A stretch of DNA of 64,000 nucleotides from Haliotis rufescens (taxonomy: Eukaryota): positions 74,772,001-74,836,000 of the forward strand of contig NW_025963890.1 in the NCBI RefSeq assembly GCF_023055435.1. Direction: 5' to 3'. The notes below the pieces were generated by a model. It was not told the origin of the DNA. It searched no databases and saw nothing but the letters and a program-made list of their open reading frames with translations. Every line of letters begins with the position of its first letter. Positions within the stretch are counted from its first letter, which is position 1. This document shows positions 3,140-9,100 of this stretch, piece by piece. The translations under genes were made by a program, and so were the position numbers.

Positions 3140-6100
3140 CTGGAGGCAAACGATGGACATTCTTATAGCAGCTAATAAGCTGTTTGAATGGAATGGCCAG
3201 TTCGTATTTAAGCTTTTGCTCAATAATACACTGGCTTCTTTTTAAGAATTAACTTCAATAAATTTGTTTGGCTTTAATGGAGGTATAAACATAAAAACCT
3301 GTGTGTTCACTGATTTACCCTAAGTGTGCTCACAGTATTTACTTTTATACCTCCATAAACACAAAACATATAAAAGTCAATATTTATAAATAAACATAAA
3401 CAATAATAACATCAATTATTTAATCAACACACAAAAAAACGTATGAAACCGGAGATATCATTCAGAGAAAATATGCAACACAAGGCCCGAACATTCTATT
3501 ATTAGCAAATCAGGAAACTTAGGAAACTCTCCTAGTAGGCGTGCCACTATATACAGTGACACCTTGTGAACTCAAAATGCTTGTGACAATCAATTACTTG
3601 TTATCATGGTTTTAAAAGTGAGTGAGTGAGTGTGTGTGGTTTTAAGCCGCTTTTAGCCATATTCCGGCAATATCACGGTGGGGCACACCAGAAATGGGAT
3701 TCACACATTGTAACCATTTAAGGAATCAAACCGGGTCTTTAGCGTGATGAGCAAACACTTTAACCATTAGCCTACCCCATCAATGTCCTTGCAAAAACAA
3801 TTCTCGCTAGGACCTGTCAAAACACTGCATTAGAGTTTCATTAAATCATCACCGCTTTTAGCAATATTCCAGCAATATCACGGTGGGCCCACACGAGAAA
3901 TGTGCTTAAAACATGATACCCATGTTTGGAATCAAACCCAGGCCTTCAGCGTGACGAGTGAACACTTTGGCCACCAGGCTACCCCACCGCCCACACAGTT
4001 TTAACACAATCAAGTGGGCAAAATGTAGCATATTATGTGATCTTCACAAGATGATGATTAAAGAGCACATTGCATGTATTAGTTTCATGATCACAGTAAA
4101 TGCATATTTCTATTTCCAACAGCTGGTTCTTCTATAAAGTAATTAACATGTTTTATAAGGCTAAGGGCACTGGTGCTTCAGACGATCCAGGGTTTTAAAT
4201 TAGGCCAAACGATGAAAAAGAAATGTTGCTTATTGTCTTCAGACACTAAGCGGTTCAATTCTGCTTTTTTCAGTTCCAAACTCAGCCATTCCTAATTTTC
4301 TACAATTTAGATTTTAGTCTTCAATAAGAGTTATCTTTCCTTTACTGTGTGACAACCATGTGGTATACATTCACAATAGCCCAGAGATCATATAGCTTTC
4401 TTGTACTTTCAACATTTTCCTGATGGCACCTGGAATTAAATATTTCTCTCTTTTAGTGTCCCTGGCTGTGTTCTTTCATTCTGTTTGAAAACAAGGCCAG
4501 GTCGACAAGGATGTGACTGAAATAAGAAGCCTGGTCATTGGTCAATCTGGAAGTGATGAGAAACATTGTATTATATTTGTGGCCTTAGTGCTGCTGCATG
4601 TCAACATCATCTCACCCAGTATCCAGAGGGGCTTGATGCTCTTCCTGCCGGGGTAGGGCTCGGGGCCGATGTACACACTGCACCGAGACACGGAACTCGT
4701 CACCTGCAACAGGAAACATTGAAATAGTGTGGCACTCGTGCTCCATAGTGAAGTGTATGTTATAACTACGGACTATGTAGACACTCTACCACCTTACCAA
4801 TATCAGAATTATCTCCCCTTTAGTCTCTCACGCCAAAGAAGCCCTGTTTTCACGAATAACCCACATGTTGAACCCATGAAGTGTATCTTGTTACAAAGTA
4901 CGAGAACACAACACACAGGTACCAGGGAACTTCACCAGACCATAACATCACTCAAATCCAAAGATACCTGTCCCCCACACAGGGTGAGGAGGTTTTACCA
5001 GGGAGCCCCTAGGGGGCACGTATTTACTGTAGACAGTCAGGCACACATTTACTGTAGACAGTCAGGCACATACCTGTCCCCCACACAGATTGAGGAGGTT
5101 GATCAGGGAGCCCCTAGGGGGCACGTATTTACTGTAGACAGTCAGGCACACATTTACTGTAGACAGTCAGGCACATACCTGTCCCCCACACAGATTGAGG
5201 AGGTTGATGAGGGAGCCCCTAGGGGGCACGTATTTACTGTAGACAGTCAGGCACATATTTACTGTGGACAGTCAGGCACATATTTACTGTAGACAGTCAG
5301 GCACATACCTGTCCCCCACACAGGGTGAGGAGGTTGATCAGGGAGCCCCTAGGGGGCACGTATTTACTGTAGACAGTCAGGCACACATTTACTGTAGACA
5401 GTCAGGCACATACCTGTCCCCAACACAGATTGAGGAGGTTGATCAGGGAGCCCCTAGGGGGCACGTATTTACTGTAGACAGTCAGGCACACATTTACTGT
5501 AGACAGTCAGGCACATACCTGTCCCCCACACAGGGTGAGGAGTTTGATCAGGGAGCCCCTAGGGGGCACACATTTACTGTAGACAGTCAGGCACACATTT
5601 ACTGTAGACAGTCAGGCACATACCTGTCCCCAACACAGAGTGAGGAGGTTGACCAGGGAGCCTCTAGGGGGCACACATTTACTGTAGACAGTCAGGCACA
5701 TACCTGTCCCCCACACAGGGCGAGGAGGTTGAACAGGGAGCCCCTAGGGGGCACGTATTTACTGTAGACAGTCAGGCACATACCTGTCCCCCAACACAGT
5801 TTGAGGAGGTTGATCAGGGAGCCCCTAGGGGGCACGTATTTACTGTAGACAGTCAGGCACACATTTACTGTAGACAGTCAGGCACATACCTGTCCCCCAC
5901 ACAGATTGAGGAGGTTGATCAGGGAGCCCCTAGGGGGCACGTATTTACTGTAGACAGTCAGGCACACATTTACTGTAGACAGTCAGGCACATACCTGTCC
6001 CCCACACAGATTGAGGAGGTTGATGAGGGAGCCCCTAGGGGGCACGTATTTACTGTAGACAGTCAGGCACATATTTACTGTGGACAGTCAGGCACACATT

Positions 6101-9100
6101 TACTGTAGACAGTCAGGCACATACCTGTCCCCCACACAGGGTGAGGAGGTTGATCAGGGAGCCCCTAGGAGGCACGTATTTACTGTAGACAGTCAGGCAC
6201 ACATTTACTGTAGACAGTCAGGCACATACCTGTCCCCCACACAGATTGAGGAGGTTGATCAGGGAGCCCCTAGGGGGCACGTATTTACTGTAGACAGTCA
6301 GGCACACATTTACTGTAGACAGTCAGGCACACATTTACTGTAGACAGTCAGGCACACATTTACTGTAGACAGTCAAGCACATACCTGTCCCCCACACAGA
6401 GTGAGGAGGTTGACCAGGGAGCCTCTAGGGGGCACACATTTACTGTAGACAGTCAGGCACAAACCTGTCCCCCACACAGGGTGAGGAGGTTGAACAGGGA
6501 GCCCCTAGGGGGCACGTATTTACTGTAGACAATCAGGCACATACCTGTCCCCCACACAGTTTGAGGAGGTTGATCAGGGAGCCCCTAGAGGGCACGTATT
6601 TACTGTAGACAGTCAGGCACACATTTACTGTAGACAGTCAGGCACATACCTGTCCCCAACACAGGGTGAGGAGGTTGATGAGGGAGCCCCTAGGGGGCAC
6701 ACATTTACTGTAGACAGTCAGGCACACATTTATTGTAGACAGTCAGGCACATACCTGTCCCCAACACAGGGTGAGGAGGTTGATCAGGGAGCCCCTAGGG
6801 GGCATGTATTTACTGTAGACAGTCAGGCACACATTTATTGTAGACAGTCAGGCACATACCTGTCCCCAACACAGGGTGAGGAGGTTGATCAGGGAGCCCC
6901 TAGGGGGCACGTATTTACTGTAGACAGTCAGGCACATACCTGTCCCCCACACAGAGTGAGGAGGTTGATCAGGGAGCCCTAGGGGGCACACATTTACTGT
7001 AGACAGTCAGGCACATACCTGTCCCCCACACAGGGTGAGGAGGTTGACCAGGGAGCCCCTTGGGGGCAAACATTTACTGCTGACAAACATCAGTCCACAG
7101 CTACTGAAAAAGGTCTGTTTGTACTCATCTCCCAGGGACTGACGTTCCTGTCTAGCCACCTAGAAAGAGTGAAAGAATGAGTGAGTGAGCGAGCTGGGTC
7201 TAACCTCATTAAGAACGTGAAAGGGAGCAAACATTATAAGCATACTTTCGTACGCATGGTGGAAAGAGTAATCATTAGACTCTATAGTTATCTATTACCA
7301 TGATTAGACATGTAAAAGGGAGAAATCATTACACGTTTACAGCTACACACCTTGGCCCGGGGGAACTTAGCGCAGCATTCATACGGTTCCTCATCCACCC
7401 AGTGCCCCGCCTCCACAGACTTGAACACCTTCAACAGTCAAACTTCACATTGCAAAGACAGCCAAACTTTACATTGCAAAGACAGCCAAACTTTACATTG
7501 CAAAGACAGCCAAACTTTACATTGCAAAGACAGTCAAACTTTACATTGCAAAGACAGCCAAACTTCACATTGCAAAGACAGCCAAACTTCACATTGCAAA
7601 GACAGCTAAACTCCACATTGCAAAGACAGCCAAACTTTACATTGCAAAGACAGTCAAACTTTACATTGCAAAGACAGTCAAACTTTACATTGCAAAGACA
7701 GCCAAACTTTACATTGCAAAGACAGTCAAACTTTACATTGCAAAGACAGCCTAACTTTACATTGCAAAGACAGCCAAACTTTACATTGCAAAGACAGTCA
7801 AACTTTACATTGCAAAGACAGTCAAACTTTACATTGCAAAGACAGCCAAACTTTACATTGCAAAGACAGTCAAACTTTACATTGCAAAGACAGCCAAACT
7901 TTATAAAGCAAAGACAGCTAAACTTAACATTGCAAAGACAGCTAAACTTTACATTGCAAAGACAGCCAAACTTTACATTGCAAAGACAGCCAAACTTTAC
8001 ATTGCAAAGACAGCCAAACTTTACATTGCAAAGACAGCTAAAATTTACATTGCAAAGACAGCCAAACTTTACATTGCAAAGACAGCCAAACTTTACATTG
8101 CAAAGACAGCCAAACTTTACATTGCAAAGACAGCCTAACTTTACATTGCAAAGACAGCCAAACATCGGTAAACGATAGGGCTGGGACGATACACCAACTG
8201 TGCGATCCAATACGTATCACGATATCTTGTTCACGATCCGATACATATCACGATTCTTGTATGTGCTCTTATCTGTGGTGCATAAGCCATGTTTTTCATA
8301 GACAGGATGGCACACTGACGATTTACAGCTGGCAGTGTCAAGTATGGCGCAATGGATAAAAATATTTACTTCTTCACCACTAAATTTCACTACTAATTAG
8401 TGTTTGGTGTAACAGCCAAAGTAAACATTTAACGTATCGATATTTTCTACTTAGTGTGTAACTGTGATCGATACTTGTATCGGGAAGTAAAATAACCCAA
8501 TCGGCCGATGTATCAGTGTATCATCCCACCACTAGGAAACAGTGTGACACACTAACCAACAGGCCCTAGTTATGGCATAGTTTCATTGACATCTTACAAA
8601 TCCAGTTTCAGATGGCCATTGGTCACCAGTCATAGACCAATAAAATTTCAATTTGAGATATAGTTTGTGTAACTAGTCAGACTTTGACCAATGGAAATGC
8701 TAAGCAAGGTGTCACACATTTCATAATTTCATAATTAAAAAGTCAATAGTAAGGATTAGTCCTTAGAGAATCGATTTTACAAAACAGTGCACAGCCCTCA
8801 AAAATCATAACTGAAATTCTGAGCAGTGCATGTCTTTGCATCATATTTTCTACAGCAAACGCTGTCACGAGCTCTACTAACTTAATCAAGTGCATTTCTT
8901 ATCGCAAAGTTCATTGGCCAGATTGTATATATCTCATCCAATCACGAAAGGCACTGCGTTCATTTGCTGTTATTGTTCGTCTGCTATTTTTGTTGATTTT
9001 TGTGAGCACATGACTTAGCACACACAAAAAATGCAGGATGCCGCTGAAGAAATGGCCACTAAAGGTGGGTTAAAATCAGGGGATACTCTGAACATGTTTG

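What the first reader, a model, noticed from the sequence alone, without database searches (positions are those of the whole stretch)
4965..7080. ~21 tandem copies of the BRCT3 exon end plus splice donor; the ancestral junction may be the distal copy
Each unit re-copies ~60-75 nt of exon 11 (…PPRGSLxNLLxLCGGQ) and CAG|GTAT. The distal copy (4968) runs into unique intron sequence (gtatctttgg), while proximal copies read GTA TGT GCC TGA, so only the first donor (7018) preserves the frame. Inference: the duplication displaced the original junction by ~2 kb and a repeat-born donor is now used, a snapshot of splice-site turnover. A 25-bp subunit varies 1-4x per unit.
Basis: partly seen in the sequence, partly recalled or inferred. 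Interest (0 to 1): 0.7.

Follow-up and report, generated by a model that had tools for sequence, protein, structure and literature searches.

The report
Splice-donor minisatellite in abalone microcephalin
The end of one exon of an abalone microcephalin gene, with its splice signal, is repeated 20 more times into the next intron; the assembled spliced RNA cuts at the first signal and four related species carry the same repeat, so it is likely an old, tolerated repeat of a kind already known from human and lancelet genes.

Summary
Observation confirmed. On the minus strand, coding exon 11 (7159-7019) of abalone MCPH1/microcephalin is followed by 20 more copies of its last ~60 nt plus CAG|GT. Units are 55+25n nt (n = 1-4), and any donor but the first adds a stop three codons later. 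In 3 of 4 RNA-type runs the spliced contig joins the true exon to exon 12, so donor 7018 is used. The 'snapshot of turnover' reading is only partly right. All 4 related species laid also carry the array and the same distal GTATCTTTGG, so it is old, and no array-free orthologue was available to prove which end is ancestral. Duplication logic and a 13-14-nt exon/junction homeology at the unit's edge favour the distal end as the old intron start (about 70%); a decayed older copy is not excluded. The cut site never moved relative to the protein; only intron bases from +5 are new. This is a new member of a known kind (human F7 IVS7 VNTR, lancelet 'mirages'). The scan noted at least seven similar arrays elsewhere in this genome (not checked here). 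In this gene two more arrays repeat an acceptor and the stop codon.

The parts
3054..33340 (-). MCPH1 / microcephalin gene, 13 coding exons, 830 aa
7019..7159 (-). coding exon 11 (141 nt, aa 727-773, first half of the third BRCT domain)
   Evidence: spliced contigs
7011..7021 (-). used 5' splice donor CAG|GTATGTGC (first copy)
   Evidence: 3 of 4 RNA-type runs; predicted U1 duplex -9.4 kcal/mol
4964..7079 (-). minisatellite: exon end plus 20 further copies of exon end and donor, units 55+25n nt
7094..7106 (-). exon-internal word CAGTAGCTGTGGA resembling the distal junction word; inferred seed of the first duplication
   Evidence: score 15; 1 of 5984 null positions reached it; 10 control donors scored 7-11
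4960..4970 (-). distal donor CAG|GTATCTTT, silent in the RNA seen; likely the old exon-intron junction sequence
4704..4967 (-). single-copy remainder of intron 11 (264 nt); 4862-4967 shows no difference in four relatives
4616..4703 (-). coding exon 12 (88 nt, aa 774-802)

Best explanation
This is a junction-spanning minisatellite in intron 11 of abalone MCPH1, likely born by local tandem duplication of the exon end plus CAG|GTAT and likely neutral, whose first donor is the one used in the spliced RNA seen. Shown: 21 donors; a stop after every downstream donor; first-donor use; array and distal junction shared with four relatives. Inferred: (1) slippage or unequal exchange between the junction word and a similar word 88 nt inside the exon duplicated about 80-88 nt; (2) a second slippage between the two TGTGCC words made the 25-nt subunit; (3) unequal crossover expanded and shuffled units (units 7-8 recur as 14-15, and 9/11/12 as 19/20); (4) the old intron start was pushed to the distal end while the cut site stayed in place and gained a slightly better U1 match (+5 C to G); (5) the most upstream donor wins by 5'-to-3' scanning or exon definition, as shown for human F7, and rare use of later donors would give a premature stop and probably nonsense-mediated decay.
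For: Anatomy. Stop after 20 of 20 downstream donors; only 4 in-frame mini-exon routes, all through weak CCYTAG acceptors and one needing a 40-nt intron. Spliced contigs of X16, X17 (own species) and X18 (organism B) join exon 12 to the true exon 11, identified by the diagnostic letters at 4995-4996 and the loose end CTGACAAACATC...; none shows copy-type sequence at the joint. DNA contigs of organisms B-E: 4 of 4 show repeat-type pieces with 10-40-fold summed depth over the unit and the GTATCTTTGG intron joined to a distal exon-end copy. The junction word matches the exon best at 7106 for 6 of 7 word lengths. U1 duplex with the genome's own U1: -9.4 (proximal) versus -7.2 (distal) kcal/mol. Copies read Val (GTG) at codon 757 as H. 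cracherodii, asinina and rubra do. Precedent: PMC1557585, PMC3087553, PMC3902484.
Against: No array-free orthologue was seen, so the ancestral intron start is inferred. The 15 nt after GTAT do not align to the exon better than chance on their own (p 0.08-0.15). The distal intron start has a weak further colinear likeness to the exon (anchored p 0.03-0.13; unanchored p 0.035-0.89), so it could be an older decayed copy. The homeology word length was chosen after looking. Logan contigs drop rare variants, so low-level use of later donors is not excluded, and 1 of 4 RNA-type runs (X15) gave no spliced contig. Neutrality was not tested; 106 nt after the distal donor are invariant in five species (post hoc p 0.01-0.04).
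Confidence: 0.72

Rival explanations
1. The sequence after copy 21 is not the ancestral intron start but an older, decayed copy of the same exon-derived unit (GTAT + CTGTGGACTGATG... hybrid junction); the true old intron start lies further down or is lost.
For: The distal word is almost the hybrid that a duplication at 7106 would make. Further colinear words (TGATGTT, TCCCTGGT, CCTGTGTG) follow in the exon's order. Anchored extension p = 0.028 under one scoring.
Against: p = 0.13 under the other scoring; unanchored local alignments to exon 11 were not significant against dinucleotide shuffles (p 0.11-0.89) and need long gaps. The 264-nt remainder is single-copy in the genome.
Confidence: 0.17
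2. The proximal type is ancestral: the old intron began GTATGTGCCTGACTGTCTA, this was duplicated with 61 nt of exon, and the distal copy lost it later by a deletion starting at +5.
For: The 15 nt after GTAT are not significantly exon-like; in F7-type arrays the unit holds real intron sequence (PMC1557585, Introduction).
Against: Needs an extra deletion before five species split. It leaves as coincidences both the homeology at 7106 and the TGTGCC word shared with the exon.
Confidence: 0.07
3. The distal CAG|GT is a recursive (ratchet) site: the array is first spliced out from 7018 to 4968, which regenerates the old donor, and that donor then removes the old 264-nt intron. The array would be a new intron with a zero-length exon.
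For: Each copy ends in CAG|GT with a CTCAC word about 20 nt upstream (sequence). 106 nt after the distal donor are invariant in five species.
Against: The acceptor context is poor (GTGTGGGGGACAG). No RNA contig covers 4755-4964 in 4 of 4 runs, though contigs cannot show absence. One low-depth organism B contig lacks the distal donor altogether (X15).
Confidence: 0.04

Closest known systems
Human F7 intron 7 37-bp VNTR, and the 6-16, CBS intron 13, lamin B2 (100 bp x 10-15) and PDGF intron 4 (81 bp x 16-18) arrays listed in PMC1557585 (read: abstract, synopsis, Introduction, first three Results sections; parts 1-2 of 6)
   Same: First unit spans an exon-intron boundary, so the donor is reiterated in the intron; only the most upstream donor is normally used; similar unit size and copy number to lamin B2 and PDGF.
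   Different: Here the unit is mostly exon-derived (about 61 of 80 nt, against 4 of 37 in F7). The last copy differs from the rest from +5, the unit holds a nested 25-nt subunit, and the array is shared across five species. Pseudo-site competence was tested in F7, not here.
Lancelet 'mirages' in globins BflGb6/BflGb9, Adh3, troponin C and PGBD5 (PMC3087553 and PMC3902484; passages found by term search, not whole texts; supplements not read)
   Same: Minisatellite-like tandem duplications of exon-intron boundaries in an invertebrate, with splice signals in the copies, normal splicing, concerted evolution of inner units and divergent boundary units (copy 21 and copy 2 are among the most divergent here).
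   Different: Different phylum and more copies (21 against 3-7 reported in those passages). Allelic and somatic length instability was shown for mirages but not tested here.
Intron gain by tandem duplication of AG/GT proto-splice sites (Rogers model, as cited in PMC3087553)
   Same: The duplicated word is CAG|GT, which could serve as both donor and acceptor.
   Different: No new intron position arises: the mRNA junction is unchanged and a 264-nt single-copy intron remainder with its own acceptor follows the array.

Membership tests
Junction-spanning minisatellite (F7-type / mirage) | Head-to-tail tandem repeat whose first unit spans an authentic exon-intron boundary | tested here: met
Junction-spanning minisatellite (F7-type / mirage) | Splice signal reiterated in the intronic copies | tested here: met
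   20 further CAG|GT; 19 of 20 with +5G; U1 duplex -8.6 to -9.4 for the proximal types
Junction-spanning minisatellite (F7-type / mirage) | Authentic (most upstream) donor used; mRNA normal | tested here: met
   3 of 4 RNA-type runs, 2 studies, contigs only
Junction-spanning minisatellite (F7-type / mirage) | Copy number varies among alleles or individuals | not testable with these tools
   short-read contigs break in the repeat; summed depth is not a copy number
Junction-spanning minisatellite (F7-type / mirage) | Pseudo-donors functional when the first is mutated | not testable with these tools
   needs a minigene
Intron gain by tandem duplication / recursive splice site | A copy's AG is used as an acceptor, creating a new intron or ratchet intermediate | tested here: inconclusive
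   no such contig in 4 runs, but contigs drop rare forms
MCPH1 / microcephalin | One N-terminal BRCT and a C-terminal BRCT pair homologous to microcephalin | tested here: met
   the top five PDB sequences are microcephalin, covering both ends

The most novel reading that the evidence does not exclude
The displaced old junction is still at work: the distal CAG|GT acts as a recursive splice site, or its conserved 106-nt tail as a splicing element, so that the array is removed as a separate, duplication-born intron. More broadly, abalone introns would be seeded preferentially by exon-boundary duplications (3 of 7 arrays in this gene cross a donor, an acceptor or the stop codon), making abalone a natural test set for first-donor selection and intron birth.
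Probability: 0.06. Interest if true: 0.65.

Novelty: new member of a known kind. Interest (0 to 1): 0.22.

Why it matters
As it stands it is ordinary: another case in which the spliceosome ignores about 20 donors as good as the real one and takes the first. Its modest value is as a dated example, persisting across five abalone species with its likely pre-duplication intron start at the far end. It is also part of a pattern: one gene carries donor, acceptor and stop-codon arrays. If boundary-crossing arrays are enriched genome-wide, abalone would allow a comparative test of upstream-first donor choice and of intron gain by duplication in an invertebrate.

Tried and rejected
Pfam on exon 11 or exon 12 alone found nothing; the whole protein was needed. 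The intron-1 row used a wrong coordinate; it was dropped and recomputed. Test that the 15 nt after GTAT are exon-derived: not significant alone. Test that the distal intron start is a decayed copy: mostly not significant; kept as a rival. Dating by Val/Leu at codon 757 was set aside: mismatch counts against one search suggest that own-species RNA contigs also carry Val, so Leu may be private to this allele (inferred from counts only). No RNA holder on record was listed for 4440-4990; the runs laid are 'RNA?' guesses, though their spliced joints show RNA origin for three of them. No RNA contig covered 4755-4964, which is no proof of absence. 8 of the 24 listed runs were laid in all. Protein searches found abalone orthologues only from H. 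rufescens, cracherodii, asinina and rubra and give no intron sequence. Paper searches for an abalone or mollusc precedent and for abalone microcephalin showed none in their listings (15 of 38 listed). PMC6905558 (passages) reports an intronic 27-bp abalone minisatellite not said to cross a junction. A search for the microhomology-origin model gave two listings, not read; that model is recalled knowledge. No earlier scan note lies near this window.

Full report
Gene. The window's minus strand carries MCPH1/microcephalin. A BRCT exon matches Haliotis rufescens XP_046353576.2 (P0001) at 100%, with orthologues named microcephalin-like in H. asinina and H. cracherodii and an unnamed one in H. rubra. 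A GT-AG model of 12 exons reproduces residues 6-830 with 0 mismatches, and a short first coding exon lies at 33340. The exon in question, 7159-7019, is coding exon 11 (aa 727-773). Intron 11 is 7018-4704 (2315 nt) and exon 12 is 4703-4616. Pfam and PDB searches place the third BRCT across exons 11-13.

Observation. There are 21 GGACAG|GT sites from 7018 to 4967. Nineteen continue GTATGTGC, one GTTTGTGC, and the last GTATCTTTGG into 264 nt that have one match in the genome. Units are 55+25n nt with n = 1 to 4, and their last ~61 nt are 87-93% identical to the exon end. Near-identical units recur 7-8 units apart (units 7-8 with 14-15; 9, 11, 12 with 19, 20), which points to block duplication; copy 21 is among the most divergent. 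The local search of the genome returned 15 matches, all in this array.

Which donor is used. Each of the 20 downstream donors includes GTA TGT GCC TGA and stops three codons after Gln773, removing the last 57 residues. Of all routes through an intronic AG and a later donor (mini-exon up to 300 nt, 94 AGs), 4 stay in frame, all through CCYTAG, one with a 40-nt intron. I laid four RNA-type runs on 4440-5045, which holds only the last copy, so that diagnostic letters tell true exon from copy. In X16 and X17 (own species, one study) and X18 (organism B, another study) one contig each skips the 264-nt remainder, lacks copy 21's extra base, and runs on into true exon 11 sequence. So donor 7018 is used in 3 of 4 runs; X15 gave no spliced contig. 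Contigs drop rare forms, so minor use of later donors is not excluded.

Which end is ancestral. DNA contigs of four related organisms (B-E, about 96% alike over the single-copy part) all show repeat-type pieces at high summed depth, and a single-copy contig that joins the intron remainder through GTATCTTTGG to an exon-end copy. Indirect evidence favours the distal end. In a head-to-tail duplication the old 3' flank stays on the last copy, and proximal and distal copies share only GTAT. The distal junction word (CAG plus 11 nt) has its best match in exon 11 at 7106, 88 nt from the exon end and close to where the unit would begin. It scores 15, reached by 1 of 5984 null positions, against 7-11 for 10 control donors and 12 for the proximal word; the same position wins for 6 of 7 word lengths. 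This fits a homeology-seeded first duplication (model recalled, not read here). Against it: the word length was chosen after looking; the 15 nt after GTAT are not significantly exon-like alone (p 0.08-0.15); and the distal sequence has a faint longer likeness to the exon (p 0.03-0.13 anchored; mostly not significant unanchored), so it may be an older decayed copy.

What changed. On the duplication model the exon bases and GTAT of donor 7018 are the original ones in place, and the protein junction CGGQ|VT is the same in four species. Only intron bases from +5 are repeat-born. With the genome's own U1 5' end the predicted duplex is -9.4 kcal/mol for the proximal word and -7.2 for the distal one; the gene's other donors span -5.5 to -12.2. 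'Turnover' thus amounts to a slightly stronger donor at the same place with 19 similar decoys behind it.

Mechanism and precedent. PMC1557585 (abstract, Introduction and first Results sections read) describes human arrays whose first unit spans a donor (F7, 6-16, CBS, lamin B2, PDGF). It shows by mutation that the most upstream functional donor is chosen and that the next takes over when it is destroyed. PMC3087553 and PMC3902484 (passages) describe lancelet 'mirages' with normal splicing. The abalone array meets the three defining features that could be tested here. That scanning or exon definition works the same way in abalone is inferred. Earlier scan notes list seven similar donor or acceptor arrays in this genome; I did not check those loci.

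Context. Of 7 tandem arrays in this gene, 3 cross a functional boundary: this donor array; a 42-nt x108 array (16730-21281) that repeats the exon 6 acceptor, with 48 close copies of CAG|TCTCYGAGCT and the last one used in the model; and an 86-nt array (1351-3105) with 20 copies of the last codons and stop. A simple placement null expects 0.6 and gives p = 0.017; this is one gene, chosen because it had such an array, so it is only a hint.

Loose ends. The four relatives show no difference from the window over 4862-4967, against 11-14 events in 4704-4861 (post hoc p 0.01-0.04); chance or a remaining splicing role. One X15 contig (depth 3.8, 22 loose letters) joins a repeat subunit to 4735 at a shared GTGCC; a deletion allele without the distal donor or a template switch.

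Verdict. Real, correctly described, and a new member of a known kind. Silent, first-donor-wins minisatellite with the old intron start at the far end: 0.72. Interest 0.22.

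Noticed in passing
window 16730-21281 (-): 42-nt x108 array filling about 90% of MCPH1 intron 5 repeats the exon 6 acceptor and first 11 exon bases (48 close copies). Many units continue into GTAAGA, giving possible 13-nt (frameshifting) micro-exons; the most upstream copy follows an A-rich tail of what looks like a dispersed repeat.
   Followed up: partly
window 1351-3105 (-): 86-nt array repeats the last 12 codons, the stop codon (20 copies) and the start of the 3' UTR; polyA-like words lie just beyond it (1295, 817). Two own-species RNA contigs end 76 nt into exon 13, inside the first unit, as expected if the array is in the 3' UTR.
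   Followed up: partly
window 7434-8163 (-): 24-nt x30 array ends 6 nt before the exon 10 acceptor, so this acceptor's upstream tract is repeat sequence (GACTGTTGAAG|GTG).
   Followed up: no
window 4862-4967: 106 nt after the distal donor show no difference among five species while the rest of the intron remainder differs at 11-14 events.
   Followed up: partly
window 4735 (run X15, organism B): One low-depth unspliced contig joins an array subunit to 4735 at a GTGCC microhomology, skipping the distal donor and about 230 nt; deletion allele or artefact.
   Followed up: no
window 4616-4703 and 3057-3139 (-): Exon 12 differs from the relatives at 4-7 of 88 nt, and 5 of 22 differences between the H. 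rufescens and H. cracherodii proteins fall in aa 757-817 (BRCT3).
   Followed up: no
window 12317-12501 (-): 48-nt (16-aa) coding repeat inside exon 8; the orthologues differ in its number (about 4 here, 3 in H. asinina, 6 in H. rubra, by eye).
   Followed up: no
window 12771-12776 (-): Tandem CAGCAG acceptor of exon 8 accounts for the one-residue difference between RefSeq isoforms X1 and X2.
   Followed up: partly
window 37307-39602 (+) and 49805-57772 (+): Neighbouring ORFs look like a forkhead-box gene and an ankyrin-repeat gene (motifs recalled from translations; not searched).
   Followed up: no
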